This document shows, one piece after another, positions 34,750-49,544 of a stretch of DNA of 64,000 nucleotides. This DNA is from Proteobacteria bacterium UBA5680 (GTDB lineage: Bacteria > Pseudomonadota > Gammaproteobacteria > Arenicellales > UBA5680), in NCBI GenBank assembly GCA_002420425.1, contig DIIC01000017.1, forward strand, positions 76,052-140,051, given 5' to 3'. Made by a program: the position numbers and the translations under genes. Under the pieces are notes generated by a model. It was not told the origin of the DNA. It ran no database searches and was given only the letters and a program-made list of their open reading frames with translations. Each line of letters opens with the position of its first letter. Within the stretch, counting starts at the first letter, position 1.

Positions 34750-36960
34750 GTGATGAATATACAAAACCGAATCGATCGGCTCTGCTCCCGGATGCACCAA
34801 GCTCCGCAGTACCCCAACCAGGGTGCTGTCCAGTTTGTTGATCTGACAAACAGGGAATCACACTCTGCCTACTTTTCATCTGACGTTGCGAGCGCATTTC
34901 TTGGTGGACGTGGGGCAAATATGTATCTGCTCTATAACCTCCTCGATGAGGGTTGTCACCCACTAGACCCGCAGGTTCCGCTTATATTTGGGGCGGGCAT
35001 TCTCACGGGATTTGTGCCGGGGGCCCCAAGAGGGAATGTCTCCAGCCTCTCGCCCGATAGTCGAGCTATCCTTGATGCCAATGCGGGTGATTTTTTCCCC
35101 TCCTTCATGCGCCGTCACGGGATTGATCATCTGGTCTTGTATGGCAAGGCGCCCTCACTGACACTCCTTCATTACAAAGAGGGCTCTTTCTTTTTTGATG
35201 ATGCCACCCCCTACAGCGGGCTCAACAACCAATCTCTAACCGAACAGATAGAGTCTCACTACCACTGCAAAGAGGGCAAAGACATGGCCCTTGCGCGGAT
35301 TACTCAAGCGGGTGAAAACCAGGTCCTAACCAGTGGGATCATGGGGGGAGAGAAGTCAATTTGGGCGCGAGGGGGAGGCGGTGCAAAAATGGGGTCAATG
35401 CAGTTAAAAGCTCTCCTGATAGAGGGCGATGTTCCCAAACACACGCCGACCGCTCTGTTTCGAAGTAACAACAAGGCAATTGGAAAGAAGATCCTGAGCA
35501 CCAGTGTAGTGAAGAACGTACTTAAAAAAGTGGGCACTCCCTTTCTCTATAAAGCAAGCCGAACGCTCCATGCCCTCGGTGCTTTGAATAATCAGAAGAC
35601 CCAGTGGAGCAAAAGCCTGGATGCAGAGAACTTGACTCCCTATAAGAGGGGGATGACAGGATGTTACAAGTGCCCCGTACACTGTCGTATGCTCAATCAG
35701 CTTGATGAGGAGGGGGCCGCTCCCGGCACCCTGCTAAAGGGTGATGGTCCTGAATATGTCACTGTCGGCAAGTTTGGGCCCAATCTTGGGATTTCTGATC
35801 CTCAAGTGGTGGTCAGACTGAACAACAGGCTGAATGATCTTGGTCTTGATTCAGCCAGTACCGGGGGCGCGCTGGCTTGGGCTTTTGAACTCTATCAGCG
35901 AGGCATTATTACTACCCAGGAGACCGGGGGTTTGGTACTTGAGTGGGGTGATGGGGCGTTGGTAGAACAACTCCTGGAGATGACGGCTGCACGCAAGGGC
36001 TTCGGTTCGACTATTGCTGAGTCAGGGCGTGCAGTGGAGAAGGGGTGTTATCCTGATGAGGCGCTCGATTACCGGATGGCTGTCAAGGGTCTGTTTCAGT
36101 CAGACCCCCACGATTCACGCATCATCAAGGCATTTGCCCTGGGTCTTGCGGTGGCAACACGGGGAATGGATCATCTCAGAAACAGGGTTACACTCGAGAT
36201 CAATCCGAGAATCAATGATGACCCCGACTATAAAAAGAGTCTCTATGGGGGGATGGTCGACGCCAATCCGGCAAGTTATAACGGCAAGGAATATGCTGTT
36301 TCAAAATGTGAACAGGTTTTTGCAGCAGGAGATGCGGCCGGGATGTGTCGGTTTAATACCAAGCTGTTCAACTCTCCGTCGCTGCCCCATTGTGGTGATT
36401 TTGCGGTTCAGCTCAAAGAGTTGACCGGACTGCCTTTTACTGAAGAGAGTGTTGAGAGTGCCGGACAGAACATTAATCTCCTTGAGAGGCTGATTAATTT
36501 CAGGATAGGGTTGAGAGCCTCTGACGATACTCTTCCTGATCGCTGGTTTAATGAGTCTATCAAGAGTGGTCCCTATGAAGGTGAAAAGATAGAACGTTCT
36601 CATTTTGATGATTTAATACAGCGATACTACTCTCTGATTGGGGTTGGCCCGAATGGTATGGTGCTGGCAGACAAACACAGGGAGCTTGCCGAAAAAGTCA
36701 CAGGCTTCTGGGTTAATGTCCAGTTTCCGGACTCTCTTTTGGGTGGTACCGAGATCCCTTCAGTGTTTGATGAGCCGGTGGAAAACATCGTTGAGCTGAG
36801 AGAGAGATTGATTGGCCGTTATCCCATACTCAGAGAGCCGCTTGATGATGAACTGGCACTGGTAGTGGTTAATGGGGAGACTATCTTCTCAGGTGAGAGT
36901 GAGCACGCGGTAAAGAGTGGAGACTCAATTGAGTTTGTCCATGCCATTTCAGGCGGTTAA
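34750..36960 (+). CDS. tungsten-type aldehyde:ferredoxin oxidoreductase (AOR family) fused to a C-terminal MoaD/ThiS-like domain ending in Gly-Gly
   Basis: 736 aa. AOR N-domain (FLGGRGANMYLL). 4Fe-4S motif CYKCPVHC. The last 85 aa or so (from about 36697) read ...ELRERLIGRYPILREPLDDELALVVVNGETIFSGESEHAVKSGDSIEFVHAISGG-stop. Confidence 0.85.
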   Translation: MMNIQNRIDRLCSRMHQAPQYPNQGAVQFVDLTNRESHSAYFSSDVASAFLGGRGANMYLLYNLLDEGCHPLDPQVPLIFGAGILTGFVPGAPRGNVSSLSPDSRAILDANAGDFFPSFMRRHGIDHLVLYGKAPSLTLLHYKEGSFFFDDATPYSGLNNQSLTEQIESHYHCKEGKDMALARITQAGENQVLTSGIMGGEKSIWARGGGGAKMGSMQLKALLIEGDVPKHTPTALFRSNNKAIGKKILSTSVVKNVLKKVGTPFLYKASRTLHALGALNNQKTQWSKSLDAENLTPYKRGMTGCYKCPVHCRMLNQLDEEGAAPGTLLKGDGPEYVTVGKFGPNLGISDPQVVVRLNNRLNDLGLDSASTGGALAWAFELYQRGIITTQETGGLVLEWGDGALVEQLLEMTAARKGFGSTIAESGRAVEKGCYPDEALDYRMAVKGLFQSDPHDSRIIKAFALGLAVATRGMDHLRNRVTLEINPRINDDPDYKKSLYGGMVDANPASYNGKEYAVSKCEQVFAAGDAAGMCRFNTKLFNSPSLPHCGDFAVQLKELTGLPFTEESVESAGQNINLLERLINFRIGLRASDDTLPDRWFNESIKSGPYEGEKIERSHFDDLIQRYYSLIGVGPNGMVLADKHRELAEKVTGFWVNVQFPDSLLGGTEIPSVFDEPVENIVELRERLIGRYPILREPLDDELALVVVNGETIFSGESEHAVKSGDSIEFVHAISGG

Positions 36961-37080
36961 CCCGTTGGCCGAGGAGTTGAGTTAACGTAGAAGATGATTT
37001 TGTATCAAAATGGATCTCGACAGGAGGATGAGAGAATGCCCCATCAACCCGATAAAAGAAATGCCTGCTCTGGGAGGGGG

Positions 37081-37959
37081 TTATAAGCTTGCCAGTGTGA
37101 GTGAGGAGACAAGAGTAGCGTTGTTATATCGATCAAATTGATTAGAACTGATGATTATCCTCAGAGAGGAGACATAATCTTTGCCCCGGGTAGAGTAGGA
37201 GAGGAGTCCGGAGGCGAGTAATTCCCCACTTAAGGGTTGACCGTGGAGGCGCTGAGAAGCACGCAGTCTTCGGAGGTCAGAGTAGGCACGATGGGTGTTG
37301 AGATTGCGCATATACTCAGCCACTGAATCACCAAGGGAGTTGAATTTTCTCACATAGTGGCGCGAGCCCTTGTCGCGTCTTTTGGGCGCAAGGCCCAGTT
37401 TTGGGTTCCAGGTCCAGATGCCAAAAATATTCCGCGCATCCCGGGCAAAGCGTGAACGACCCCAAGCACTCTCATTGGCGGCTTGGGCAAGTGCGAGATC
37501 GACGGGGATGATATCGATACGACTGAGCATCTCCTGACGGAAAGGGATTCCAAGCTGAGGGTCATACTTGACCTTATACTTCTTGGCCAGCACCTTTAAA
37601 TAACGGATTTGACGCCCGGATAAATCACTTTGTTGGGTTGTTCCTCTAAACAGAACGACCAGGTCTGATCTCTCTTCTGAAATCGCCTGATTGGAGAGAA
37701 GGATCAGAGGGAGCAGGATATCGACAAACAGCTGCTTACGCTCCTGATTGGAGATCTCAGCCATATTTGCAGGCATATCCTGGGTATCAATGGGATAGAC
37801 CTTGATCGCATAGTTATCTTGTTGCTCTTTATTTGTAGTCGTCTGTTCAGCAACGCTATTGTCAGAGCGTCCAAACCAGAAGAGTGAGAAGGCAGAGGCC
37901 TGCACAGAGTATAACAACCCTGCGAGGACGATTGCCACAATACCGGTCTTAGGCAGCAT
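37081..37959 (-). CDS. glucosaminidase-domain (Bax/FlgJ-like) protein
   Basis: 292 aa. N-terminal signal/anchor. Contains LAQAANESAWGRSRFARDARNIFGIWTW. Confidence 0.75.
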   Translation of the reverse strand: MLPKTGIVAIVLAGLLYSVQASAFSLFWFGRSDNSVAEQTTTNKEQQDNYAIKVYPIDTQDMPANMAEISNQERKQLFVDILLPLILLSNQAISEERSDLVVLFRGTTQQSDLSGRQIRYLKVLAKKYKVKYDPQLGIPFRQEMLSRIDIIPVDLALAQAANESAWGRSRFARDARNIFGIWTWNPKLGLAPKRRDKGSRHYVRKFNSLGDSVAEYMRNLNTHRAYSDLRRLRASQRLHGQPLSGELLASGLLSYSTRGKDYVSSLRIIISSNQFDRYNNATLVSSLTLASL

Positions 37960-38158
37960 TCTTGACCTTGGTGGCCTTTACTGCTTCTTCGGCTTCGTTG
38001 ATTACCTTGACGTCAGTCAGGGCATCAGACAGCTGAGCACTCGAGCCAGTCCAGTGAACTTTTTCCGGTGAACGCTGGTTGAGTTCACCCACATTCTTGA
38101 TTGTAGCAACGCTCTTTTCAGCGATCTCAGTAATAAGATTAATAGTTTGATTTTTCAT
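37949..38158 (-). CDS. small helical hypothetical protein (69 aa)
   Basis: ORF overlapping the Bax-like gene start by 11 nt. Vaguely phasin-like, but not assignable. Confidence 0.4.
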   Translation of the reverse strand: MKNQTINLITEIAEKSVATIKNVGELNQRSPEKVHWTGSSAQLSDALTDVKVINEAEEAVKATKVKNAA

Positions 38159-38218
38159 GATTCATATCCTCTTGAATAAATAAAAAAGTGAATTAAGATG
38201 ACAAACAACGTAACTATT

Positions 38219-38252
38219 TGTTGCAATGCACCATATGTTGCAATGCACAATA
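38219..38252. repeat. tandem 17-bp direct repeat (putative operator) in an AT-rich 396-bp intergenic region
   Basis: TGTTGCAATGCACCATA (38219-38235) and TGTTGCAATGCACAATA (38236-38252), 16/17 identical. Located 61-94 nt upstream of the 69-aa gene. Confidence 0.8.
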
Positions 38253-38554
38253 TAGAGTTGAACACATGGTGTCAAGTTATTCTTTAATTAAATTCAAGGT
38301 TGGTATAAATATCTGATTAATATCAGTGTGTTAAAAATTACAGTCGGGCTCTTTTAGGGTAGGAATGAGGAGTTTGGGGTTAGTTATCTGAGAAAAACGC
38401 ATTATTCGGGCGGCCGGGGTTCGTGTTTTTGGTTGAAACCCTCATTACAGTGGCAACAACGGCAATAAACATTATAATAACCTAATAAACTAATATTGTC
38501 AAACTTATGCAATTAACAAGAATAGTCTTTAATAAAGGTTGTTAATATTTTGTT

Positions 38555-39751
38555 TTATAACGATTCAGAATACCAGCTTCCATCTGCTTTTGGCTTGATC
38601 CAGAGATGGCTGAACCAGAAATAAGCCTTTTTCTGTTGATGCGGAGCAGTGCAGTTGTAGCGGCTGCGGCCTGGGCGAAGAGGCCTGGAGGGTTTTAGAG
38701 TGAGCGAGATCAGCCCGGAAGAGGTCTCGGTCCTTATTGAGATAGGGATCTTTCCCTCCCCAGAGGCGAAACAGGCGATCTGCTGGGGATCGAATCGCCC
38801 CGGGGTGAGTTTAACCGTCAGCCCAGGCGGGTTGTTATCTTCGCTAACCAGAGGGCTTTTGGAACTCTTCTCAACGACAGGAAGTGGATGAGTGTTGACC
38901 TTCATTCTGAATTGGGCCAAATCGGCATATCGGGTGGACATATTGAAGCGACTGATCACCAGAGGGTTGCTGCCAAACCAGGCGGGCCCGGACTGCTGCC
39001 CAAAGCCAATCAAACCGAGTTGGCTGATAATTTCCAGCAGTTCAGGGGTGAATTCACCATAGGGATAGGCAAAGAGTCGGGTGGGTCTGCCGACCTCTTC
39101 CAAGAGCCGGCTTTCTGCTTCACGAAGATCTGAAACAACCCGCTCTCTCCACTTTTTTGAGCTCTCATCGGCTTGGTGGCGAATCAGGTGGCTGTGGCTG
39201 GCACTGTGGTTGGCAAAATCAATCTGGTGATCTGACAGCTCTCTCATTTGATCCCAGGTCATCAGAGCGCCAAATTTTTTATCTATTCCACGTGTGGATA
39301 CAAAGACAGTGGCGGGGTAGTCGTAGCGGCGCAAAAGTGGGTAAGCGGCCTCATAGATGGAACGATAGGCATCATCAAAGGTGATCGCTGCACACCGTTG
39401 TGGGAGGGGCTTTTTTTCAAGAATATGGGTGACGACTGATTCAAGCGAGAGAAGGGTGAAGTCTGTCTCATTAAGGTAGTCCAGGTGGGCTTTGAATAGG
39501 GCTGGGGTGACACTGGTAGAGGCGGGAGTCTCGCTGCTGATGTGGTGATATTGAAGTATGACGCAGTGGTCAGCGGCGTGGAGTGGGCCGGTGACAGAGA
39601 AAAAGAGCAACAGAGAGCGTGCAAGGGTTTGCAAGGGAAAAAGCAGAGAGTCAGAAATGCCAGATAAGACTGCCCCGAAGAGTTGGAGCCGGGCCCAAGA
39701 ACTGGTTTGGAAGGATCTCAAGCCCTCCATACTCCGTATTGTCACTGCCAA
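38555..39751 (-). CDS. polysaccharide deacetylase (NodB homology) family protein
   Basis: Reads AAITFDDAYRSIYEAAYPLLRRYDYPATVFVSTRG...MTWDQMREL...FANHSASHSHL. The ORF start at 39751 overlaps the upstream gene by 101 nt. A TTG at 39634 gives a cleaner signal peptide (MQTLARSLLLFFSVTGPLHA). Confidence 0.8.
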   Translation of the reverse strand: MAVTIRSMEGLRSFQTSSWARLQLFGAVLSGISDSLLFPLQTLARSLLLFFSVTGPLHAADHCVILQYHHISSETPASTSVTPALFKAHLDYLNETDFTLLSLESVVTHILEKKPLPQRCAAITFDDAYRSIYEAAYPLLRRYDYPATVFVSTRGIDKKFGALMTWDQMRELSDHQIDFANHSASHSHLIRHQADESSKKWRERVVSDLREAESRLLEEVGRPTRLFAYPYGEFTPELLEIISQLGLIGFGQQSGPAWFGSNPLVISRFNMSTRYADLAQFRMKVNTHPLPVVEKSSKSPLVSEDNNPPGLTVKLTPGRFDPQQIACFASGEGKIPISIRTETSSGLISLTLKPSRPLRPGRSRYNCTAPHQQKKAYFWFSHLWIKPKADGSWYSESL

Positions 39752-40880
39752 AGGGTATGTCTATCCCCAGTGAAAATGAGCCGTTCTCGTGGATGCTGTA
39801 TTCAGCACTCAATGAAGCCAGTCCGCTTGAGTCCGCCAGATTGAAAATTCCAAGAGAGCCGATTGAGAGCAGAGGGGTCAGGCTGGTATTGAGGCCGGCT
39901 GAAATATAGTCCTGGCCGAGGGTGAAGAGCTGCCCTCGACCCATTTTGGAGAGCAGTGGTTCGCTTGGATCAAAGATAAGAGCGTAATCTTTCAGCCCCA
40001 AACCACTATGGAAGTACTCTGCAAATCCGGTAACCACAGATTCTCCCCATCTCCAGGCGTGTTCGATATTGGCGACCAGTGAGGTATAGGTGGTGTCAAG
40101 TTCTGAGATCGTGGTGACCAGGTCAATACGCCATATGGCTTCTCCAATCGGCCCTACCAGGCCAAGGGCCAGTGTGGTATCAAGGTAGTCACGGGCAAGC
40201 ATGGTGGTGGTCTCCATAATATCACCATAGCCATGCCACTGAACCGCGACTGAGCTCAGGTCACTATCGATGGCATTTGACTCTGTTGAGCGTCTAGGGA
40301 TAACGACCAACTCAATATCATCACCCTGAGCCAGCAGGTGCTGCACATAGAGCATGTCAACGCCGGGTTTATATCGGGTATCTGTTGAGTTCGGTGCAAA
40401 TGGGTTAAAGAGGTCGGCAGGCCGGAAGACCCGTCCATTCCCCCATGTCAGAGATTGACGCCCAAGTCGAAAGATGGTGTTGTCCCCCGAATAACTCAGC
40501 AAAACTCGATCAAGCCTGTGTTCACTCTTCTCATTGGTTGTTGAACTGAGAGTATTGTCGAGGTCAAACCAGGGAAGCGTCTCTTGTTGGCTATAAGGGT
40601 TGGAGACTGAGACTGAGTCTCCATGACGGAGAGAGGCGAGATAGTGGACTGTCCCGCTCCAGGGTCCTTCGGAAAAGCCCTCAATCAGTCGCAGTGAGGC
40701 AGAGCGGTTTGATATTGAGGTACGGTCAGGGTAGAGGAAGGAGTTCTCATAAGGTCCGCTTGAACTTCCGTTTAACTGGAGCTCTCCCTTAAGAGGTTCG
40801 GTGCTGGCAAGCGCCGCACTCAACTGCAGAGTGAGGAGTGTGCTCCACACCAGTCTTGAAGAGAGTGCCGGTTTAAACAT
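39651..40880 (-). CDS. outer-membrane beta-barrel protein (alginate-export / DUF1302-like pattern)
   Basis: 409 aa. Signal peptide ending LSAALAS. Alternating beta pattern. Contains FRLGRQSLTWGNGRVFRPADLFNP. C-terminal aromatic residue (...LIWHF). Confidence 0.6.
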   Translation of the reverse strand: MFKPALSSRLVWSTLLTLQLSAALASTEPLKGELQLNGSSSGPYENSFLYPDRTSISNRSASLRLIEGFSEGPWSGTVHYLASLRHGDSVSVSNPYSQQETLPWFDLDNTLSSTTNEKSEHRLDRVLLSYSGDNTIFRLGRQSLTWGNGRVFRPADLFNPFAPNSTDTRYKPGVDMLYVQHLLAQGDDIELVVIPRRSTESNAIDSDLSSVAVQWHGYGDIMETTTMLARDYLDTTLALGLVGPIGEAIWRIDLVTTISELDTTYTSLVANIEHAWRWGESVVTGFAEYFHSGLGLKDYALIFDPSEPLLSKMGRGQLFTLGQDYISAGLNTSLTPLLSIGSLGIFNLADSSGLASLSAEYSIHENGSFSLGIDIPFGSDNTEYGGLEILPNQFLGPAPTLRGSLIWHF

Positions 40881-40890
40881 GGCTCTAGAC

Positions 40891-41583
40891 CTAATCCGCC
40901 TCTGTCACATCCGTGTCAATTCGTCCATCAACCATTCTAATCCTTCTGCGGGTAAGGTCAATAACGCGCTGATCATGGGTGGCAACAATAAAGGTGATCT
41001 GTTTGTTGCGGTTCAGTGACTCCATGAGGTTTAAGAGTTCTTCTGCCGTTGCTGAATCAAGATTTGCTGTGGGTTCATCCGCAAGGATGATAGCCGGCTC
41101 ACTGACGATCGCCCGGGCCACAGCAACACGTTGCTGTTGTCCGCCTGAAAGCTCGGCGGGGCGTCGATCGCCCAGGCCCTCCAGGCCGACTTCATTAAGA
41201 ATTGAAAGCGCCTGTTTTCGCCTGATGTCAGGGCTTATCCCCTGAAGCTGCATGATGAATTCAATATTCTCCAATGCGCTCAATACCGGAATCAGGTTGT
41301 AGGCTTGAAAGACAAAACCAATTTTATGCAGTCGGAGTTCAGCGAGATCTGCTTTTTTCATCTGGTCTACTCTGGATCCATCAACTGTAATCTCCCCAGA
41401 GGTGGGCCTGTCCAGTCCACCGATGAGGTTAAGCAGGGTGGTCTTGCCAGAACCGGATGGCCCTGAGAGACTGACAAACTCACCTTTTGTGACTTCAACT
41501 GTGACAGCCTGTACGGCATGCACTTCGACTTCATCCTGACCATAGGTTTTGGTGGCTGCATTACAGTGGACAATGGTAGTCAC
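40891..41583 (-). CDS. ABC transporter ATP-binding protein (LolD/MacB type)
   Basis: Walker A GPSGSGKTT, LSGGQQQRVAVARA, ILADEPTANLD. Confidence 0.9.
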   Translation of the reverse strand: MTTIVHCNAATKTYGQDEVEVHAVQAVTVEVTKGEFVSLSGPSGSGKTTLLNLIGGLDRPTSGEITVDGSRVDQMKKADLAELRLHKIGFVFQAYNLIPVLSALENIEFIMQLQGISPDIRRKQALSILNEVGLEGLGDRRPAELSGGQQQRVAVARAIVSEPAIILADEPTANLDSATAEELLNLMESLNRNKQITFIVATHDQRVIDLTRRRIRMVDGRIDTDVTEAD

Positions 41584-41592
41584 AGTTTCTCC

Positions 41593-42822
41593 TCAATAGG
41601 ACTGGTTGATGGTGGTGACAGGTACTCGGCGGGCTGCTCTCCAGGCGGGCCAGAGACAGGAGAGAATTCCCATAATCCAGACGAAGGATGAGATGGCAAA
41701 TATGATAATCAGATCAAGTTTGGGATAGAGCACTCTCCCGGAGCCAAAAAGATCGGCCCCTGCCGCAAGAGGACCGAGGTCGAGGCCGTTCGTAAAGGCG
41801 TAAATACTCAATATGCTGATCACCATCCCAACAACTACCCCAATCCCCACCATGAAGGCGGCTTCCAGCAGTACCTGGGAGAGAATGAGCCTGGGTTTCA
41901 TGCCCAGCGCCTGGAGCAGGCCGAATTCTCGGGTACGCTCATAGACGGCCATCAGCAGGGTGTTGACCATCCCAAAGGCGATAATAATAAACATAATGAC
42001 GGTCCAGACACCGATCATTGCTGCTGACATCTCCTGCATGGTTTGGGCCAAGGGCTGGAGGTCACTCCAGGTGGATACATCAAGATCTGAAAATACCTGC
42101 TTTAACCGATCAACCTCGCTCTGGACCTCTTCCGGGTTATAAAGGGTGAAGGCGACCTCATGGACAGCATCTTTGATGTCGAGGAGGGATTGGGCTTTTT
42201 GCAGGGTAATGAAGACAAAGCCGAGCTCAATCTCCTCCAAAGAGGCATCAAAGAGTCCAACTACCCTGAGGCCGGATTCTGCTATCTCTCCGCTGCTGTT
42301 CTGGCTGAGGATGACCACCCGCTTTCCGATTCGGGTGTGGAGTCGTTCAGCAAGTCGACGGCCAAGAACAATTTCGGCAGTGTGTCCCTCTTTGGGCTGG
42401 CGGCCACTTGAGAGTTCATTGCCATAGAAGGAGAGGTCAACCTCTCTGGCGGGGTCAAGGCCTATAAGGGTAATCGGAGCACTCTCTCTCTCGCTTCGGA
42501 CAATCCCAGGGACACGGACACGACGGTTCCAGGCCTTAATTTGGGGTGATTCCATGGCCTCATCCAGAGAGGCTGGCGGAAGTGAGAAACGATACTCAAC
42601 ACTGGGATCATCGAGATAGCCCTGCTGGTGTATCTGGCCGTGGCCGGTGAGGTTGTTGGTTGCTTCATGGACAACACTCCCCACCCAGGCATCCATAAAA
42701 GCGGCGAGGGTGATCATTGACCAGACGCCAACAGCGATCGCGGCAAAGGTAATCAGGGTGCGCCGGCTGTTGCGCCACAAACTTCGCCAGGCGATGGGGA
42801 TAATCAGGGTTTTTTGTGTCAT
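41593..42822 (-). CDS. ABC transporter permease, FtsX/MacB-LolC type
   Basis: 409 aa. TM1, a large periplasmic domain, then three C-terminal TMs containing ERTREFGLLQALGMKP. Confidence 0.85.
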   Translation of the reverse strand: MTQKTLIIPIAWRSLWRNSRRTLITFAAIAVGVWSMITLAAFMDAWVGSVVHEATNNLTGHGQIHQQGYLDDPSVEYRFSLPPASLDEAMESPQIKAWNRRVRVPGIVRSERESAPITLIGLDPAREVDLSFYGNELSSGRQPKEGHTAEIVLGRRLAERLHTRIGKRVVILSQNSSGEIAESGLRVVGLFDASLEEIELGFVFITLQKAQSLLDIKDAVHEVAFTLYNPEEVQSEVDRLKQVFSDLDVSTWSDLQPLAQTMQEMSAAMIGVWTVIMFIIIAFGMVNTLLMAVYERTREFGLLQALGMKPRLILSQVLLEAAFMVGIGVVVGMVISILSIYAFTNGLDLGPLAAGADLFGSGRVLYPKLDLIIIFAISSFVWIMGILSCLWPAWRAARRVPVTTINQSY

Positions 42823-42835
42823 TGTCTCTCCAGCC

Positions 42836-44059
42836 CTAGATTTTGCGCATCGCCATTACCGGCTCAAGGCGACGAATACGGAGAATGGGATAGAGGCCGG
42901 CCAGAGCGATAGAGAGGCTGATAAAGAGAGGGCCGGCGAAGAGCGTGAACGGGTGGATGATCGGATAGATTGATCCGGACATGCCAAATTCCGCCATCAT
43001 CTCCTCCATCGCCTCAAAGTAGATTCCCGTCTGGTGGTAGTACTCGGAGATCGCATAGCCAAAGAGCAGGCCGGTCAGCACGCCAAAGAGGATGAGCATC
43101 AGGGTCTCTACCCAGACTACCTTTCCAAGGATTGCTGGTTTCATCCCCAGGGCCATCAGCATCCCAAACTCTCGAGTACGCTCAAGGACTGACATCAGCA
43201 GGCTATTGAGCAGGCTGAAGGTGACAACGATGATAAGGACAACATAGATCAGCAAAGCGGATGACATATCAAGCAGGATCGCCTGTAAAATAGGGGGCTG
43301 GAGTTCAGTCCAGTCAAGGACGACCAGGTTCGAGTCGCTATCGAGGAGAGCGAGGATGTTTTCCTTCTCCTCCTGCAGGGCGATCGCTGAAGCACCCGAG
43401 AGGACGATAGAGTGAGCCTGATCCGGGATTGAAAAGGTCTCTTGAAAACGGGTCAGCGGCATTTCAGCAAACCGGCGATCGATTTCGGGAATACCGGACT
43501 TAAAGAGGCCAATGATCTGGAGGGAGTCTACCGCCATTGATCCGTTAAGCCCCGTACCCAGCAGGGTGACAGCATCTCCCACTTTGAGCCCAAGGTTTTG
43601 TGCCAGACGTTGGCCAAGAATGATCTCGTTATCAGCCCCCTGGGAGAAAAAACGACCTTCGACGATCTTCTTGGGAACTGTGGAGAGTCCGGGTTCATGC
43701 TCGGGTTGAACGCCAATAATCATCGCCCCAAAGCTACGGGTCGGTGAACTCAGCAGCCCGAACCCGTTCGCCCGCCCCCCTGCATGTTTGACTTTAGGGT
43801 TTTGGATGATTTTGCTAAGGAGGTTATTGGGATTGTCTATCGTCTTGCGGATAGAGGGATCCTTTTTATAGCCCTTGACCTGTATCTGGAGATGGCCGTC
43901 AAAGAGGGCCATCGAACTCTCGATCATGCCGAGATAGCCGCCAAACTGGAAGGAGAGCATGAAGACCATCAAAGTGGTGGTCAGAGCGATGGCCAGTGTG
44001 CTCAGAATGGTCCGGCGGGGTTGACGCCAAAGATTGCGCCTTGCCAGGGCAAAGATCAT
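42836..44059 (-). CDS. ABC transporter permease, FtsX/MacB-LolE type (paralogue of the previous gene)
   Basis: 407 aa. Same topology, with ERTREFGMLMALGMKP. Overlaps the upstream gene by 4 nt. Confidence 0.85.
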   Translation of the reverse strand: MIFALARRNLWRQPRRTILSTLAIALTTTLMVFMLSFQFGGYLGMIESSMALFDGHLQIQVKGYKKDPSIRKTIDNPNNLLSKIIQNPKVKHAGGRANGFGLLSSPTRSFGAMIIGVQPEHEPGLSTVPKKIVEGRFFSQGADNEIILGQRLAQNLGLKVGDAVTLLGTGLNGSMAVDSLQIIGLFKSGIPEIDRRFAEMPLTRFQETFSIPDQAHSIVLSGASAIALQEEKENILALLDSDSNLVVLDWTELQPPILQAILLDMSSALLIYVVLIIVVTFSLLNSLLMSVLERTREFGMLMALGMKPAILGKVVWVETLMLILFGVLTGLLFGYAISEYYHQTGIYFEAMEEMMAEFGMSGSIYPIIHPFTLFAGPLFISLSIALAGLYPILRIRRLEPVMAMRKI

Positions 44060-44880
44060 GGTGCCGACCAGGGTCTTGGGTTGCGAAGATTGGATAGGGT
44101 AAAGAGATAACCGGGCAGAGGAATATCAAATCCCCCTTCATGAACTCGTATTTGAGTCCAATGGTCTTCCTCTTCAAGACTGATCATGCGCATCTCAACA
44201 GGGTAGAGCCGTCCACCGAGTAAAGATATGTCGGTAGTGACCATACGTTTTACCGGCACCATATCCTGATCATAGAAGGTCTGCTCAAGAATAATGAAGT
44301 CTTCACGGATAACAATCGTTTGCTTTCCCCACACTACCGGGGATTCGGCCTTGGGAATGGATTCAATGGTATAGAGAGTATGTCCATCCTGGTTTGAGAT
44401 GTCGGTGACAAGATGATCAAAGTTCTGAATGATCTTATCTGATCGAGAGAGGTCGTTATAAGAGAAATCAGATCCCATCCAGGATTGGGACAGCATGCTT
44501 GCCGGCAGTTTGATCACCTGATTGATCTTTGGGGTAAAGATCCACATCCCCTTGTCTAAAGTGAGGGTGGCATTGCCCGCATCCTTTGAGGGTGCTGTGA
44601 AGCGGCCAAGGAAATCTTTCTTTCCCCGGGTCCAGGTCTGGAGTGTGAGTGAGCGCTCCCAGTCAGGACGGTGGACCACCATCTCGGTGACGGAGTAGGA
44701 GTAGTCGGAGCGCCATTGGTCGAGGGTGCCCTCAATCAGTTGCAGCGCCTTCTCTTCATTTGCTTGTGCGATAGAGGTAAAGCAGAAGAGGGCCAGAAAA
44801 ATCAGGGCATAGAATCGATTTTCGAAAAAGCGTCTATACCACGCAGCAGAGAACCTGTTCATCAGTAAATTGTATATCAA
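44056..44880 (-). CDS. periplasmic LolA-like (outer membrane lipoprotein-sorting family) protein
   Basis: 274 aa. Signal peptide ending FTSIAQA. The pattern TLDKGMWIFTPKINQVIKLPASMLSQSWMGSDFSYNDL is typical of the LolA_like family found next to FtsX-type ABC systems. Confidence 0.65.
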   Translation of the reverse strand: MIYNLLMNRFSAAWYRRFFENRFYALIFLALFCFTSIAQANEEKALQLIEGTLDQWRSDYSYSVTEMVVHRPDWERSLTLQTWTRGKKDFLGRFTAPSKDAGNATLTLDKGMWIFTPKINQVIKLPASMLSQSWMGSDFSYNDLSRSDKIIQNFDHLVTDISNQDGHTLYTIESIPKAESPVVWGKQTIVIREDFIILEQTFYDQDMVPVKRMVTTDISLLGGRLYPVEMRMISLEEEDHWTQIRVHEGGFDIPLPGYLFTLSNLRNPRPWSAP

Positions 44881-44989
44881 CGGCGGTTAAAACAAAATTA
44901 ACAAGTGAAGCAAGGGTGTTCGACTATCTTCCTTCTGGTTGCCGACGCCAGAGAGCAGTCGGCAGAGAGAGCAGAATAATCAGAGAGGG

Positions 44990-45172
44990 TTACTCTTCCC
45001 TATGACACTTTCCATTGATGCAGGAACAACTCTCGCCGCACCCCTCGCCCTCTTCTTTGTGAATACCAAGTTCTGGGTGGCGCTTTGAGAAGTTGCGTGT
45101 GATCGACTGCACCATCAGCCATGCAAACAACAGGACGAGGATGATTAAAGCAGCAGTGATCACTTTTAACAT
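44990..45172 (-). CDS. single-TM Cys-rich mini-protein (NqrM-like / FeoB-associated Cys-rich type)
   Basis: 60 aa. Reads MLKVITAALIILVLLFAWLMV...EGEGCGESCSCINGKCHREE. Starts 3 nt after the rnfA stop. Confidence 0.6.
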   Translation of the reverse strand: MLKVITAALIILVLLFAWLMVQSITRNFSKRHPELGIHKEEGEGCGESCSCINGKCHREE

Positions 45173-45175
45173 AGG

Positions 45176-45757
45176 TTAACTCCCGAGCCCGGCAAAACCC
45201 ATGAACGAGAGCGAGAGCAGGCCGGCGAGCATAAGGCTGAGGACGGCCCCCTGGCTGACATCGGGAACAAAAGAGAGATCAAGGCGTTCCCGCAGCCCAG
45301 CCATCAGCATAATGGCAAGGGCGAACCCACCGCCAGCGCCCAGACTGTAGACCAGAGATTGAAGAAATGAGTAGTCGCGGAAAGTCTGGAAGAGGGCTAG
45401 TCCAAGAATGGCGCAGTTGGTGGTGATCAGGGGAAGAAATATCCCCAGCGCCCTAAAGAGGGTAGGGCTGAATTTTTTCATCACCATCTCAACCAGTTGC
45501 ACCGCAGAGGCGATGACCGCAATGTAGGCGATCAGCCTGAGGTACTCCATGTCGAGTGCTACCAGCAGAATATTGAGACCAAAGGCACACAGTGAACTGA
45601 CAAACATGACAAAGGTGGTGGCCAGTCCCATATTCCAGGCAGTATTGAGTTTCGCCGATACGCCGAGGAAGGGACAGATTCCAAGGAAGAGGCTGAGCAC
45701 AAAATTATTGATAATGAGTGCATTGAGAAAGATAAATGTCAGGGAGTCAGTGCTCAT
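45176..45757 (-). CDS. rnfA: Rnf complex subunit A
   Basis: Reads MSTDSLTFIFLNALIINNFVLSLFLGICPFLGVS...LITTNCAILG. ATG at 45757, preceded by an AAGGAGG SD. The ORF is open to 45847. Confidence 0.9.
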   Translation of the reverse strand: MSTDSLTFIFLNALIINNFVLSLFLGICPFLGVSAKLNTAWNMGLATTFVMFVSSLCAFGLNILLVALDMEYLRLIAYIAVIASAVQLVEMVMKKFSPTLFRALGIFLPLITTNCAILGLALFQTFRDYSFLQSLVYSLGAGGGFALAIMLMAGLRERLDLSFVPDVSQGAVLSLMLAGLLSLSFMGFAGLGS

Positions 45758-46409
45758 GGTAACCCGCCTCCTTCTCTTGAGATGTTGGTTTCCCTTCCTT
45801 GCGCAAGCGCATCCAGGAGAAGAGGAGCAACCAGGTTCCAAGCACAAAGAAACCGCCCGGCGGAAGTATCATGATTGCCCAGGGTTGGAACGAGTCGCCG
45901 AAGATATTGATGCCGAAGAGGGCGCCGCTTCCAAGAAGTTCACGAACCAGCCCCAGACAGAGCAGAGCGATAGTAAAGCCAAGACCCGTTCCCAGCGCGT
46001 TGATGATGGCTTTCGAAGGGCGGTGCTTTGAAGCATAGGATTCTGCCCGGCCCAGGATAATGCAGTTGACCACGATCAGTTGAATAAAGGCACCCAGTGC
46101 CCGGTAGAGTTCGAGACTGATCGCCTGTATGACGTAGTCGACGATGGTAACAAAAGTGGCGATGATGACAATATAGGTGGCGATGCGCACCTGTTTTGGA
46201 ATTCGATGGCGCAACAGAGAGACCAGAATACTGGAGCATACCAGGACGAAGGTGGTGGCAATGCCCATGGCGAGGGCATTGGCCCCTGAGTTGGTAACGG
46301 CCAGAACCGGACACATTCCAAGGAGCATCACGAAGACGGGGTTCTCTTCCCAGATGCCACGGGTAAAGGTCTCGAGGGTGATCGGCTTATTGGGATGCAG
46401 ATCGACCAT
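45747..46409 (-). CDS. rnfE: Rnf complex subunit E
   Basis: 220 aa. Reads NPVFVMLLGMCPVLAVT...IQLIVVNCIILGRAE. Confidence 0.9.
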   Translation of the reverse strand: MVDLHPNKPITLETFTRGIWEENPVFVMLLGMCPVLAVTNSGANALAMGIATTFVLVCSSILVSLLRHRIPKQVRIATYIVIIATFVTIVDYVIQAISLELYRALGAFIQLIVVNCIILGRAESYASKHRPSKAIINALGTGLGFTIALLCLGLVRELLGSGALFGINIFGDSFQPWAIMILPPGGFFVLGTWLLLFSWMRLRKEGKPTSQEKEAGYHEH

Positions 46410-47089
46410 TATGATTCTTCCTGAGTCAGTTTTTGCAGTTGTTGCATAATCAGTGGGAATGTTTTTTGGGCACTGTTGTTTAACATCCGCCCGATTGCCT
46501 TTGAGGAGACGGTTGCACCTGAAATGGCATCAATCTCCCATGGGTTTGATTTCTTGCCATGCTTAACGGTGACAATCTCGTTATTGAGTCGTTCTCCGGT
46601 GGCATTGAGTCGGCCATCAAGCGCTTCAAAGTTGACAAGAAATTCGGGATCAGTCTCAATTTTATCTCCAAGCCCGGGCGTCTCCTTGCTTTCAAGAACT
46701 GTGATTCCGGTAATACAGCTGCACTTTGGTGAGTAGCCGTAGAGTATTCTTATAATATCCTGATAGCCCTGTGCTGATGCCTCTAGAGCGACACCTGTGA
46801 GCTTCCCTGATAGATCATATCCCGCGTAGACTCTTGGGCCGTCCGTCTGCTGGTCATCAATCCGTTCAAGCCCTTCTGCAGTGAGTGCAAAGTTGATTCT
46901 CGAACGCGCTCCGGGGAGGACGGTAAAGATGGCACGTTCAAGCGCTATCCGGCGGTTTTCCAAAATGGCCGGCAGAGTGAGCTGATAGACAAGAACAACC
47001 AGTACGCCTGAGATCAGGGCAACAACACCAAGGGTTGCTATCAGTGAGAGCGCTGACGGCTGGGTAGAGTGTGGGGAGGGTGAATTCAC
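46409..47089 (-). CDS. rnfG: Rnf complex subunit G (FMN-binding)
   Basis: 226 aa. N-terminal TM. Flavinylation motif DAISGATVSSKA. Confidence 0.88.
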   Translation of the reverse strand: MNSPSPHSTQPSALSLIATLGVVALISGVLVVLVYQLTLPAILENRRIALERAIFTVLPGARSRINFALTAEGLERIDDQQTDGPRVYAGYDLSGKLTGVALEASAQGYQDIIRILYGYSPKCSCITGITVLESKETPGLGDKIETDPEFLVNFEALDGRLNATGERLNNEIVTVKHGKKSNPWEIDAISGATVSSKAIGRMLNNSAQKTFPLIMQQLQKLTQEES

Positions 47090-48165
47090 GATTCCTCTTT
47101 TTGCCGACGATTGAACAGCGATCTTCGCTCTTTACCATAGGCTCTTGGCTGGGTAAGCGATGCAATGAGAGGGGAGGCGGCATTACCCAGCAGAATCGCA
47201 TACATAATGCCTTCAGGGAGGCCACCGAAGAAGCGGATAGTGACGGTGAGCACTCCTATCAGAATGGCATAACTCCACACCCCCAGAGGAGTAAGCGGTG
47301 AAGCCACCATGTCTGTGGCCATAAAGATAGCGCCGAGCATCATTCCGCCTGAAAGAAGAGTAAACAGTGGGGGGGGATAGAGATCGGGGTTGATCAGATA
47401 GAAGAGTGCGCTAAAAAGGGCAGAAGAGAGAAGGATGCCGACAGGAATACGCCAGTCAAGCATTTTTCGAAAAGCAAGATAGAGGCCGCAGGCCATGATC
47501 AACAGCGCAGAGGACTCTCCTGCCGAACCTGAGGTCATTCCCATCAGTAGGTCTATCGTGCTGGTCTGGATCTGTTCAAATTTTTGGAGTGCAAGGGGTG
47601 TGGCGCCAGTGAAACCGTCAATGGCATTGGCGTTGATCCACTCTGCGGGAGAGATGGGCTTGAGAAAAGGCAGGGTCAAAGTGGAGGGGACAAACTCACT
47701 AAACCGGCCGGGGATGAATGCAGGGGTCCAGGTGGTGATGGCTACAGGAAATGCAGCCTGGACAAAGGCACGGCCTACCAGTGCCGGGTTGAGGATGTTG
47801 TATCCCAGGCCGCCAAAGATGACTTTACCCAGTGCGATGGCAATAAACCCGGCAACGGCTGCCATCCAGAGTGGAAAACCCGGGGGCAGGGTGAGGGCGA
47901 GGAGAAGGCCTGTAATCACCGCACTGAAGTCATGCAGTGATGAAGCCCGGTCGCTCACTCTCATAAAGAGATGTTCAGTGGCAAGGCAACTGGCTGTGGT
48001 AACAACAATAAGCGCAAGCGCACTCAAACCAAACTGATAGATGCCAAACAGCGAGATTGGCACAAGGGCATAGACCACATTACGCATGATTTGAGAGACA
48101 CTCGGCGCATAGTGAATATGGGGAGAAGTGCGTATCTCAACACGAGCATTTAGGCGTTTTTTCAT
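47086..48165 (-). CDS. rnfD: Rnf complex subunit D
   Basis: 359 aa, polytopic. Contains DGFTGATPL and the NqrB/RnfD pattern. Confidence 0.9.
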   Translation of the reverse strand: MKKRLNARVEIRTSPHIHYAPSVSQIMRNVVYALVPISLFGIYQFGLSALALIVVTTASCLATEHLFMRVSDRASSLHDFSAVITGLLLALTLPPGFPLWMAAVAGFIAIALGKVIFGGLGYNILNPALVGRAFVQAAFPVAITTWTPAFIPGRFSEFVPSTLTLPFLKPISPAEWINANAIDGFTGATPLALQKFEQIQTSTIDLLMGMTSGSAGESSALLIMACGLYLAFRKMLDWRIPVGILLSSALFSALFYLINPDLYPPPLFTLLSGGMMLGAIFMATDMVASPLTPLGVWSYAILIGVLTVTIRFFGGLPEGIMYAILLGNAASPLIASLTQPRAYGKERRSLFNRRQKEES

Positions 48166-49511: not shown

Positions 49512-49544
49512 TGCAATTCTCCAATAACTTAAATTTTCTATCGA

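What the first reader, a model, noticed from the sequence alone, without database searches (positions are those of the whole stretch)
38555..44880. Paralogous Lol-like envelope-trafficking operon with its own outer-membrane barrel and a polysaccharide deacetylase
Six co-directional, tightly spaced genes sit directly downstream of the rnf operon (109-nt gap, only a weak hairpin). In order they encode:
- a secreted LolA-like protein
- two paralogous FtsX/MacB-type permeases, matching the LolC/LolE heterodimer layout
- a LolD/MacB-type ATPase
- a 409-aa beta-barrel with an FRLGRQxLxWGxGR motif, as in alginate-export or DUF1302-type barrels, and a C-terminal Phe
- a NodB-type deacetylase with a signal peptide

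Together these would span the inner membrane, periplasm and outer membrane. That implies extraction of a lipidated or hydrophobic cargo and delivery to, or through, a dedicated barrel. The deacetylase hints at a glycan-containing cargo.

No glycosyltransferase or cargo gene is evident in the operon. I could not assign the function.
Basis: partly seen in the sequence, partly recalled or inferred. Interest (0 to 1): 0.6.

Follow-up and report, generated by a model that had tools for sequence, protein, structure and literature searches.

The report
Lol-like lipid shuttle with own barrel
Five of the six genes form a widespread, uncharacterised envelope module, made of a Lol-type ABC extractor, a soluble LolA-like carrier and its own outer-membrane barrel of an unnamed family, that probably moves a greasy molecule from the inner to the outer membrane; the deacetylase is only a neighbour.

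Summary
The six co-directional genes are real, on the minus strand, in a marine Arenicellales MAG. Five of them form a cassette: a PF17131 LolA-like carrier, two paralogous MacB_PCD/FtsX permeases, an ABC ATPase and a 409-aa barrel.

- **Conservation:** the cassette was complete in 69 of 69 related loci with enough flank, and in the same order in 68. A scan of species-representative genomes confirmed 401 relatives of the barrel, and the 80 loci fetched span Alpha- and Gammaproteobacteria, Desulfobacterota and Nitrospirota.
- **Barrel:** it matches no Pfam or NCBIfam model. AlphaFold2 gives a confident beta-barrel (pLDDT 90.6) that resembles AlgE and OprD-type channels. It is a remote relative of DUF1302.
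- **Not canonical Lol:** the permeases and ATPase score far below NCBIfam's LolC/E/D cut-offs. The carrier is of the "LolA3" type, whose function is unknown.
- **Deacetylase:** it is not part of the module (0 of 81 loci). Its orthologues lie beside or near a Bax-like glucosaminidase elsewhere, as they do here, so the hint of a glycan cargo is not supported.

The commonest conserved neighbour of the cassette is a TetR regulator (27 of 77 loci).

The best reading is an accessory, Lol-like route from inner membrane to carrier to barrel, for a hydrophobic or lipidic cargo. The cargo is unknown. I found no paper on this cassette. I rate it a new variant of a known kind, of moderate to high interest.

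The parts
44056..44862 (-). Periplasmic LolA-like carrier of the PF17131 (LolA3) type, 268 aa, with an SPase-I-type signal peptide (…FTSIAQA/NEE)
   Evidence: Pfam PF17131, E 7e-43. AlphaFold2 pLDDT 91.6. Best folds are 4Z48, P. gingivalis LolA3 (9TP6), 3BK5 and 3BUU at TM 0.70-0.84, against about 0.4-0.6 for canonical LolA. The exact protein is in Arenicellales MAGs, named 'outer membrane lipoprotein-sorting protein'. Only 3 of 35 homologues have a lipobox-like N-terminus.
42836..44059 (-). Type VII ABC permease 1 (407 aa): TM1, a periplasmic MacB_PCD domain of about 215 aa, then TM2-4
   Evidence: Pfam MacB_PCD plus FtsX. lolCE TIGR02212 scores 126 bits against a cut-off of 362. The nearest solved chains are LolF and LolE. 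Hydropathy shows 1+3 TM segments. Orthologues are 33-49% identical in the first permease position of other loci, against 24-33% to the second.
41593..42822 (-). Type VII ABC permease 2 (409 aa), a paralogue of permease 1 and its presumed heterodimer partner
   Evidence: Pfam MacB_PCD plus FtsX. lolCE scores 123 bits against 362. The nearest solved chains are LolF, LolC and LolE. Its own orthologue group is conserved in the second position.
40891..41583 (-). ABC ATPase (230 aa, GTG start) with intact Walker A (GPSGSGKT), signature (LSGGQQQR) and Walker B (ILADEPT) motifs
   Evidence: Pfam ABC_tran, E 2e-34. LolD TIGR02211 scores 227 bits against a cut-off of 308, and DevA and MacB ATPases score nearly as well. 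The motifs can be read.
39651..40880 (-). Dedicated outer-membrane beta-barrel (409 aa) of an unnamed family. It has a signal peptide (…SAALA/STE) and a C-terminal Phe. The most conserved stretch, GRQxxTWGxGxxFxPxDLFxPF…YKPGxD, is modelled as a non-strand segment (residues 143-173).
   Evidence: No Pfam or NCBIfam hit. AlphaFold2 pLDDT 90.6, with about 18-20 strands. Foldseek matches MOMP, AlgE and OccAB/OprD at TM about 0.5-0.58. The family has 1454 clusters (50% identity) at E<=1e-30. Invariant residues are listed. The link to DUF1302 is remote.
38555..39634 (-). Secreted NodB-type deacetylase (359 aa). It is a neighbour, probably co-transcribed here, but not a component of the conserved cassette.
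   Evidence: Pfam Polysacc_deac_1, E 2e-25. It is like the PgaB N-terminal domain but below the cut-off, 101 against 322 bits. It is absent from the fetched flanks of all 81 non-duplicate cassette loci. In three unrelated contigs its orthologues lack the cassette; two are next to a glucosaminidase gene and the third has one about 4.7 kb away. It is adjacent to the cassette only in close relatives.
37081..37959 (-). Bax-like glucosaminidase (292 aa), the partner of the deacetylase. It follows a 595-nt gap that carries promoter-like sites.
   Evidence: Pfam Glucosaminidase, E 1e-14. NCBIfam 'protein bax' scores 128 bits against a cut-off of 193. A promoter-like site matching 11 of 12 positions lies at 38502-38474 on the minus strand. 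Two of three deacetylase orthologues have an adjacent glucosaminidase gene.
44863..44989 (-). Intergenic gap of 127 nt between the rnf cluster (ending with a 60-aa ORF) and the cassette. It holds a G+C-rich hairpin with no U-run directly behind it.
   Evidence: The fold has a z-score of -2.5. No terminator-like or sigma-70-like site was called there. There was no Rfam match.

Best explanation
Window 39651-44862 (minus strand) encodes a self-contained, accessory, Lol-like route across the cell envelope.

Proposed mechanism:
1. A heterodimer of two type VII ABC permeases, powered by two copies of the ATPase, uses ATP-driven movement of its periplasmic domains to pull a hydrophobic or lipid-anchored molecule out of the outer leaflet of the inner membrane.
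2. It hands the molecule to the soluble PF17131 (LolA3-type) carrier.
3. The carrier crosses the periplasm and delivers the molecule to the dedicated barrel of about 18-20 strands, which is DUF1302-like. The barrel either inserts it into the outer membrane or releases it outside.

In parts list it is the ABC-driven counterpart of the DUF1302 barrel plus DUF1329 LolA-like carrier plus RND pump sets, such as AmeABCD.

What is shown:
- the identity and topology class of each part;
- the outer-membrane-barrel fold;
- the strict co-inheritance and order of the five genes;
- that the system is not the canonical Lol set by score.

What is inferred:
- the direction of transport;
- the hand-over steps;
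- the nature of the cargo.

A small hydrophobic or lipidic molecule seems more likely than a lipoprotein. A TetR regulator is the commonest neighbour, and no cargo protein gene is conserved nearby. The deacetylase and glucosaminidase downstream are a separate pair that probably acts on peptidoglycan.
For: - **Domains:** PF17131, two permeases with MacB_PCD plus FtsX, and ABC_tran. Hydropathy gives 1+3 TM segments with a periplasmic domain of about 215 aa.
- **Nearest solved structures:** the permeases are closest to LolF, LolE and LolC rather than MacB.
- **Carrier:** a confident LolA-superfamily half-barrel, closest to 4Z48, LolA3 (9TP6), 3BK5 and 3BUU.
- **Barrel:** pLDDT 90.6. Its folds resemble AlgE, OprD/Occ and MOMP. 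It has a signal peptide and a C-terminal Phe, and 36 of 41 family members end in F.
- **Co-inheritance:** all 69 loci with at least 4.6 kb upstream carry all five genes, 68 of them in the same order. They include the cultured Mangrovitalea, Hyphococcus and Parvibaculum and Aliikangiella.
- **Rearranged variant:** on Burkholderia and Ralstonia megaplasmids the order is carrier, ATPase, fused double permease, barrel. The parts list is the same, and the barrel is homologous at hhalign E 3e-39.
- **No other envelope component:** neither the cassette nor any recurrent neighbour cluster holds a membrane-fusion protein or a TolC-like gene.
- **Neighbours:** a TetR gene lies immediately upstream in 27 of 77 loci, across several phyla.
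- **Functional analogy:** DUF1302, DUF1329, BNR and RND genes are needed for growth on monoterpenes or fatty esters (PMC6394551; bioRxiv 10.1101/2020.07.04.188060).
Against: - There are no experimental data for any member, and the cargo is unknown.
- Direction is inferred only from what is established for type VII ABC systems (LolCDE, MacB).
- A physical hand-over from carrier to barrel was not modelled, because no multimer prediction was available.
- The neighbours from beta-oxidation and the glyoxylate shunt in Alphaproteobacteria would fit uptake of a hydrophobic nutrient equally well.
- In this genome the cassette has no TetR gene and may be read through from rnf.
- I could not verify that a canonical Lol system exists in this organism.
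Confidence: 0.6

Rival explanations
1. This is a dedicated lipoprotein route. The cassette would sort a special subset of lipoproteins, for example surface-exposed ones, and the barrel would act as the outer-membrane insertase or translocon. It would stand in for LolB, as proposed in silico for Borrelia BBJ23-29.
For: - The permeases are closest to LolF, LolE and LolC, and lolCE is the best NCBIfam model.
- The carrier belongs to the LolA superfamily.
- A similar proposal exists for a set made of a LolA-like protein, a MacB-like ABC transporter and an Omp85 barrel (PMC13078400).
Against: - No lipoprotein gene is conserved next to the cassette in 77 loci.
- A TetR neighbour points to a small-molecule signal.
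- P. gingivalis LolA3, a PF17131-type carrier, lacks the conserved Arg of LolA and barely binds LolB (PMC13103446).
- Deleting lolA3 in F. johnsoniae left gliding, type IX secretion and surface lipoprotein exposure intact (PMC11885536).
- The barrel is of the AlgE/DUF1302 type, not Omp85 or Slam.
Confidence: 0.15
2. This is an uptake system for hydrophobic nutrients. The barrel would admit a fatty or hydrocarbon-like substrate, the LolA-like protein would ferry it across the periplasm, and the ABC complex would accept or energise the transfer at the inner membrane.
For: - In Alphaproteobacteria the cassette sits beside genes for a FadB-like enzyme, acyl-CoA synthetase, isocitrate lyase and malate synthase.
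- Several carriers are from genera I recall as hydrocarbon or lipid degraders, such as Parvibaculum (the trait rests on my own knowledge).
- DUF1302 and DUF1329 mutants of P. putida grow poorly on fatty esters (bioRxiv 10.1101/2020.07.04.188060).
Against: - Known type VII ABC systems do not import. They work on the periplasmic side and push substrates outward (established for LolCDE and MacB).
- The FadB-like and related neighbours are confined to one alphaproteobacterial group, so they may reflect lineage synteny.
- They are absent in this window and in Aliikangiella.
Confidence: 0.12
3. The deacetylase would be an integral part, and the cargo would be a glycolipid or a lipid-linked polysaccharide that is deacetylated on its way out.
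For: - The deacetylase follows the barrel gene by 16 nt on the same strand, with no terminator called between them.
- The adjacency is kept in a relative whose barrel is 75% identical.
- The deacetylase resembles the N-terminal domain of PgaB, and the barrel fold resembles AlgE.
Against: - None of 81 non-duplicate cassette loci has a deacetylase in the fetched flanks.
- Orthologues of the deacetylase occur without the cassette, next to or near a Bax-like glucosaminidase.
- No glycosyltransferase or polysaccharide synthase was seen among the cassette's conserved neighbours.
Confidence: 0.05
4. This is the organism's housekeeping Lol system, or an ordinary MacAB-TolC-type efflux pump.
For: IMG names the permeases 'ABC-type lipoprotein release transport system permease', and one record names the ATPase 'macrolide ABC transporter'. 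lolCE and LolD are the top NCBIfam models.
Against: - Scores are far below the equivalog cut-offs: 126 and 123 bits against 362, and 227 against 308.
- The carrier is PF17131, not LolA.
- The pattern scan confirmed only 401 relatives among 185,579 species genomes. This is a lower bound, but it points to a patchy distribution.
- Some variants are carried on plasmids.
- There is no membrane-fusion protein or TolC-like gene, and the barrel is not TolC-like.
Confidence: 0.03

Closest known systems
LolCDE-LolA-LolB lipoprotein sorting pathway (E. coli)
   Same: It has a heterodimer of two paralogous type VII permeases (MacB_PCD plus FtsX, four TM segments), a LolD-like ATPase and a soluble carrier of the LolA superfamily. 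The nearest solved permease structures are LolF, LolE and LolC.
   Different: - All three ABC parts score below the NCBIfam equivalog cut-offs.
- The carrier is PF17131 (LolA3 type), at TM about 0.4-0.6 to LolA against 0.7-0.84 to PF17131-type structures.
- The carrier gene is the first gene of the cassette.
- The outer-membrane end is an integral barrel rather than the lipoprotein LolB.
- The distribution is patchy and some copies are on plasmids.
DUF1302 barrel plus DUF1329 LolA-like carrier plus BNR protein plus RND pump sets (AmeABCD of Castellaniella defragrans; PP_0765/0766 and PP_2018/2019 of P. putida)
   Same: A periplasmic LolA-superfamily protein is paired with a dedicated barrel of the AlgE/Occ type that carries the same GRQ…WG motif region. 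The DUF1302 model in PMC13499233 has the same fold neighbours, at TM about 0.55. Those systems are linked to hydrophobic substrates and often sit next to a regulator (PMC6394551; bioRxiv 10.1101/2020.07.04.188060).
   Different: - The inner-membrane engine is a type VII ABC transporter, not an RND pump, and there is no BNR protein.
- The barrel is about 410 aa against about 600 aa and does not reach the DUF1302 threshold. The window protein gives no hit, and the plasmid variants score 21.2 bits against 23.2.
- The carrier is PF17131, about 260 aa, against DUF1329 at about 450 aa.
Borrelia BBJ23-BBJ29 cluster (predicted export system)
   Same: [quoted passage not shown] It was proposed, from computation alone, to extract a non-polar ligand and deliver it to the outer membrane (PMC13078400).
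   Different: The Borrelia barrel belongs to the Omp85/BamA family, its permease is a homodimer, and the cluster has two extra chaperone-like proteins. Here the barrel is AlgE/DUF1302-like and the permeases form a conserved heterodimer pair.
LolA3 of Bacteroidota (P. gingivalis PGN0947, PDB 9TP6; F. johnsoniae Fjoh_0605)
   Same: The P. gingivalis protein is the closest solved carrier that has been studied functionally: sequence E 2e-9 and TM 0.73-0.82. Its function is unknown and it does not pair with LolB (PMC13103446).
   Different: Identity is only 21-22%. I did not examine the gene neighbourhood of LolA3 in Bacteroidota, so I cannot say whether it has a matching ABC transporter and barrel.
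MacAB-TolC and DevBCA-HgdD tripartite type VII ABC exporters
   Same: They share the permease architecture (MacB_PCD plus FtsX) and an ATPase that scores almost as well against DevA and MacB models as against LolD.
   Different: There is no membrane-fusion protein and no TolC-type duct. The periplasm is bridged by a soluble carrier, and the outer-membrane part is a porin-like barrel.

Membership tests
LolCDE (NCBIfam TIGR02212 lolCE; TIGR02211 LolD) | The score reaches the curated equivalog cut-off. | tested here: not met
   Permeases score 126.4 and 122.8 bits against a cut-off of 362.45. The ATPase scores 226.9 bits against 307.75.
LolCDE pathway | The carrier is a canonical LolA and the receptor is the lipoprotein LolB. 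| tested here: not met
   At E<=0.01, PF17131 was the only Pfam family matched by the carrier. The fold is closer to LolA3, 4Z48 and 3BK5 (TM 0.70-0.84) than to LolA (about 0.4-0.6). No LolB-like gene lies in the cassette; the fifth gene is an integral barrel.
LolCDE pathway | It is the only, essential Lol system of the genome, with no second set. | not testable with these tools
The indirect evidence is against it: a patchy distribution and plasmid-borne variants.
Type VII ABC transporter (MacB/FtsX superfamily) | The permease has four TM helices with a large periplasmic MacB_PCD domain between TM1 and TM2, and the nucleotide-binding subunit is separate or fused. | tested here: met
   MacB_PCD and FtsX both score above the Pfam gathering thresholds in both permeases. 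Hydropathy gives 1+3 TM segments. The ABC_tran ATPase has intact motifs.
Tripartite MacAB-TolC-type efflux pump | It has a periplasmic membrane-fusion (HlyD-family) adaptor and a TolC-family duct. | tested here: not met
   The five-gene cassette holds neither in the window nor in annotated relatives. The barrel's fold neighbours are porin-like, not TolC.
LolA_like / TP_0789-like (Pfam PF17131) | The score is above the Pfam gathering threshold. | tested here: met
   146.9 bits against a threshold of 30, E 6.7e-43, covering positions 2-183 of the 184-position model.
DUF1302 (Pfam PF06980) | The score is above the Pfam gathering threshold of 23.2 bits. | tested here: not met
   The window barrel gives no hit even at E<=10. 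Five of 41 family members hit weakly (best E 0.01). The distant plasmid variants reach 21.2 and 19.8 bits over the motif region only. It is a remote relative, not a member.
Alginate_exp / AlgE (Pfam PF13372) | There is a sequence match to the model, and the gene sits in an alginate or other polysaccharide synthesis operon. | tested here: not met
   There is no Pfam hit. The resemblance is in fold only (TM 0.55-0.58, 10-12% identity). No polysaccharide synthase was seen among the cassette's conserved neighbours.
Outer-membrane beta-barrel protein (general) | It has a signal peptide, a closed antiparallel barrel and a C-terminal aromatic beta-signal. | tested here: met
   The N-terminus is …LQLSAALA/STE and the last residue is F. 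The AlphaFold2 barrel has pLDDT 90.6. 328 PDB matches have E<=1e-3, and the top 50 listed are all outer-membrane barrel proteins. 36 of 41 homologues end in F. Localisation itself was not measured.
Polysacc_deac_1 / NodB deacetylase (the sixth gene) | The score is above the Pfam threshold. | tested here: met
   89.9 bits against 23.1. It is not a PgaB equivalog, at 101 bits against 322.

The most novel reading that the evidence does not exclude
The five-gene cassette is a previously unrecognised, widespread route across the envelope of diderm bacteria, distinct from Lol, Lpt and Mla. A Lol-type ABC extractor, a LolA3-type chaperone and a dedicated barrel of a new family would export one specific lipid or lipid-anchored molecule to the outer membrane or the cell surface. 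This would also give PF17131/LolA3 proteins and their DUF1302-like barrels their first function.
Probability: 0.35. Interest if true: 0.8.

Novelty: new variant of a known kind. Interest (0 to 1): 0.58.

Why it matters
Only a few routes are known by which diderm bacteria move lipids and other hydrophobic molecules across the periplasm. Among them are Lol, Lpt, Mla and the AsmA-like bridges.

This cassette combines the engine and carrier logic of Lol with its own integral barrel. The barrel family has at least 1454 clusters at 50% identity, no Pfam model and no name. The cassette occurs in abundant marine Gammaproteobacteria and in many soil and sediment Proteobacteria, Desulfobacterota and Nitrospirota.

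Solving it would assign a function to the PF17131 "LolA3" carriers, for which structures exist but no role. It would also shed light on the related DUF1302/DUF1329 pairs of Pseudomonas. Several cultured carriers and a frequent TetR neighbour make the question open to experiment.

Tried and rejected
- **Genome scans.** The genome-collection scan with the full 41-sequence barrel alignment failed because no block was conserved enough. The scan with the single window protein found nothing. An 11-sequence alignment worked.
- **Literature.** I ran nine full-text searches: TP0789 (two forms), PF17131, LolA-like with FtsX, LolA-like with MacB, 'outer membrane lipoprotein-sorting protein' with FtsX, LolA-like with gene cluster, DUF1302 with DUF1329, and LolA3. 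None found a paper on this cassette, only analogues. Papers in subscription journals are not covered, so absence is not proven.
- **Regulatory RNA.** An Rfam scan of 36900-45300 found nothing.
- **Promoters and terminators.** The scan gave counts no higher than in shuffled sequence and nothing in the gap between rnf and the cassette.
- **Cargo gene.** Unbiased clustering of 871 flanking ORFs from 77 loci found no conserved structural or lipoprotein gene. It found only TetR (27 loci) and lineage-restricted genes for a FadB-like enzyme, isocitrate lyase, malate synthase and acyl-CoA synthetase.
- **Readings considered and rejected.** I rejected the deacetylase as a component, a MacAB-TolC-type pump and the housekeeping Lol system; see the rival explanations.
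- **Not done.** I did not test carrier-barrel or carrier-permease docking, because only monomer prediction was available. I did not count the exact number of barrel strands, because model coordinates could not be inspected.

Full report
**1. Observation**

The region holds six co-directional ORFs on the minus strand.

| Window coordinates | Product | Main evidence |
|---|---|---|
| 44056-44880 | LolA_like, PF17131 | E 7e-43 |
| 42836-44059 | permease, MacB_PCD + FtsX, 407 aa | |
| 41593-42822 | permease, MacB_PCD + FtsX, 409 aa | |
| 40891-41583 | ABC_tran ATPase | |
| 39651-40880 | 409-aa protein | no Pfam or NCBIfam hit |
| 38555-39751 | Polysacc_deac_1 deacetylase | |

- Public records of the identical proteins start the carrier at the ATG at 44862 (268 aa). 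They give the deacetylase 359 aa, which corresponds to the TTG at 39634.
- With those starts, the gaps run -4, 13, 9, 10 and 16 nt, followed by 595 nt before a Bax-like glucosaminidase gene at 37081-37959.
- Upstream, the rnf cluster ends with rnfA and a 60-aa ORF. The 127-nt gap that follows has a G+C-rich hairpin with no U-run directly behind it. No promoter-like or terminator-like site was called there, and there was no Rfam match.
- The identical proteins come from marine MAGs labelled Arenicellales or Acidiferrobacteraceae, including Tara Oceans data. They carry only generic names, and the barrel is called 'hypothetical protein'.

**2. What the parts are**

- **Permeases.** Both have one N-terminal and three C-terminal hydrophobic segments around a periplasmic domain of about 215 aa. 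This is the type VII ABC layout.
  - Their nearest solved relatives are LolF, LolE and LolC, ahead of MacB.
  - They score 126 and 123 bits on the lolCE equivalog model, whose cut-off is 362.
- **ATPase.** It scores 227 bits on the LolD model, whose cut-off is 308. It scores almost as well on DevA, FtsE and MacB models.
- **Carrier.** It has an SPase-I-type signal peptide, and few homologues have a lipobox-like N-terminus.
  - Its AlphaFold2 model is confident (pLDDT 91.6).
  - The model matches 4Z48, P. gingivalis LolA3 (9TP6), 3BK5 and 3BUU at TM 0.70-0.84. Canonical LolA and LolB follow at about 0.4-0.65.
- **Fifth protein.** It models as a closed beta-barrel of about 18-20 strands (pLDDT 90.6).
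  - Its best PDB neighbours are 18-strand channels: C. jejuni MOMP, AlgE, and the OccAB and OprD families, at TM about 0.5-0.58 and 8-12% identity.
  - Thirty-six of 41 homologues end in Phe.
  - The most conserved stretch of the family, GRQxxTWGxGxxFxPxDLFxPF…YKPGxD, is modelled as a non-strand segment between two strands, residues 143-173. It is a candidate functional site.

**3. The barrel family**

- A word-indexed search found about 105 clusters, all hypothetical and without Pfam domains.
- An exhaustive profile search found 1454 clusters (50% identity) at E<=1e-30 and 5182 at E<=1e-3.
- Five of 41 members give weak DUF1302 hits.
- A distant variant on Burkholderia and Ralstonia megaplasmids reaches 21.2 bits on DUF1302, whose threshold is 23.2, over the motif region. 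That variant is homologous to this family along its full length (hhalign E 2.7e-39).
- A published AlphaFold2 model of DUF1302 is an 18-strand barrel with the same two fold neighbours at the same TM values (PMC13499233).
- The family is therefore a remote, unnamed relative of DUF1302, not a member of it.

**4. Conserved context**

- A pattern scan of one genome per species confirmed 401 relatives, and 80 loci were fetched. They come from Alpha- and Gammaproteobacteria, Desulfobacterota and Nitrospirota.
- tblastn with the window proteins shows that all 69 loci with at least 4.6 kb upstream of the barrel carry the carrier, permease 1, permease 2, the ATPase and the barrel. In 68 the order is the same. 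The exception is a decayed locus.
- Each window permease is more similar to the gene in its own position (33-49% and 30-54%) than to the other permease (24-33%). The heterodimer is therefore old.
- Cultured carriers include Mangrovitalea sediminis, Hyphococcus luteus and Parvibaculum indicum, and Aliikangiella marina.
- Variants exist with three permeases and an N-terminal SPOR domain on the barrel. Others have a fused double permease and a different gene order on megaplasmids. The parts list survives rearrangement, which argues for a functional unit.

**5. The deacetylase is a neighbour, not a component**

- No deacetylase, Bax or Rnf homologue was found in the fetched flanks of any of the 81 non-duplicate loci.
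- The deacetylase has thousands of homologues. The 120 best listed are almost all about 330-390 aa long and, apart from two close relatives, 43-49% identical.
- In three contigs I inspected, the deacetylase lies without the cassette. Two are next to a glucosaminidase gene, and the third has one about 4.7 kb away. This mirrors the window.
- The order rnf, cassette, deacetylase, glucosaminidase is kept only in the closest relatives, whose barrels are 99% and 75% identical to the window's.
- The pair is most simply read as a peptidoglycan-modifying duo placed downstream. The deacetylase is probably read through from the cassette in this lineage.

**6. Clues to the cargo**

- Clustering 871 flanking ORFs from 77 loci gave one widespread neighbour. 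A TetR-family regulator lies immediately upstream in 27 loci, spanning Alpha- and Gammaproteobacteria and Desulfobacterota.
- Genes for a FadB-like enzyme, acyl-CoA synthetase, isocitrate lyase and malate synthase recur, but within one alphaproteobacterial group.
- No conserved lipoprotein, glycosyltransferase or biosynthetic gene appears.
- This pattern favours a small hydrophobic or lipidic ligand over a protein cargo. It does not identify the ligand.

**7. Mechanism**

- Type VII ABC systems such as LolCDE and MacB act from the periplasmic face and push substrates outward. This is established knowledge, not tested here.
- On that basis the likeliest model is extraction from the inner membrane, hand-over to the soluble carrier, and delivery to the dedicated barrel.
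- The cassette lacks a membrane-fusion protein and a TolC-type duct, so it is not a tripartite pump.
- It differs from Lol in its carrier class and its outer-membrane partner, and it fails the equivalog cut-offs.
- Its closest functional analogues are the sets made of a DUF1302 barrel, a DUF1329 carrier, a BNR protein and an RND pump. AmeABCD is needed for growth on monoterpenes (PMC6394551). The Pseudomonas genes are needed on fatty esters (bioRxiv 10.1101/2020.07.04.188060).
- Its closest architectural analogue is the computationally described Borrelia BBJ23-29 cluster (PMC13078400).
- The closest studied carrier, P. gingivalis LolA3, has a separate and unknown function and barely binds LolB (PMC13103446). 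Deleting lolA3 in F. johnsoniae had no effect on gliding or type IX secretion (PMC11885536).

**8. Verdict**

- Still untested are the presence of a canonical Lol set in this genome, co-transcription, the direction of transport and the cargo.
- I rate it a new variant of a known kind. The cassette is widespread and has not been studied experimentally, and its barrel family is unnamed.
- Interest is 0.58.

Noticed in passing
window 44990-45172 (-): A 60-aa ORF lies 3 nt after rnfA. It has an N-terminal TM helix and a Cys-rich tail (CGESCSCINGKC). It has no Pfam hit but is conserved in Arenicellales MAGs. It could be a small Rnf-associated or maturation subunit.
   Followed up: partly
window 45176-54488 (-): The rnf cluster reads rnfC-D-G-E-A, with no rnfB seen. 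It is preceded directly by a 1647-aa PFOR-like fusion protein (POR_N, PFOR_II, POR, ferredoxin and TPP domains, plus a C-terminal ferredoxin domain), which might feed electrons to Rnf.
   Followed up: partly
window 37081-39634 (-); L089, L090, L091: A secreted NodB-type deacetylase of about 355 aa, with an extra C-terminal region of about 110 aa, recurs next to or near a Bax-like glucosaminidase gene in unrelated Gammaproteobacteria. This suggests a conserved pair that modifies peptidoglycan.
   Followed up: partly
L092 3742-10577; L093 3826-10721: Burkholderia thailandensis and Ralstonia megaplasmids carry a rearranged version: carrier, ATPase, a fused double permease of about 830 aa, then the barrel homologue. 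A UbiB/ABC1-family kinase gene follows directly.
   Followed up: partly
L002 4657-11800; proteins P0089-P0098: Some barrel homologues are about 600 aa long and carry an N-terminal SPOR (peptidoglycan-binding) domain. In L002 the cassette then has three permease genes instead of two. Loci L023, L031 and L057 also show three permease genes.
   Followed up: no
L003 6300-10000: In one alphaproteobacterial MAG the carrier, permease and ATPase genes are broken into fragments while the barrel gene is intact. This may be a decaying cassette or an assembly with frameshifts.
   Followed up: no
window 34750-36960 (+): An aldehyde:ferredoxin oxidoreductase gene lies convergent with the glucosaminidase gene. 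The relative's annotation shows a weak ThiS/MoaD-like domain at its C-terminus.
   Followed up: no
window 9593-11164 (+) and 14498-16720 (-): There are two von Willebrand factor A-domain proteins. One has a peptidoglycan-binding domain and the other an N-terminal VIT domain. Their function is unknown.
   Followed up: no
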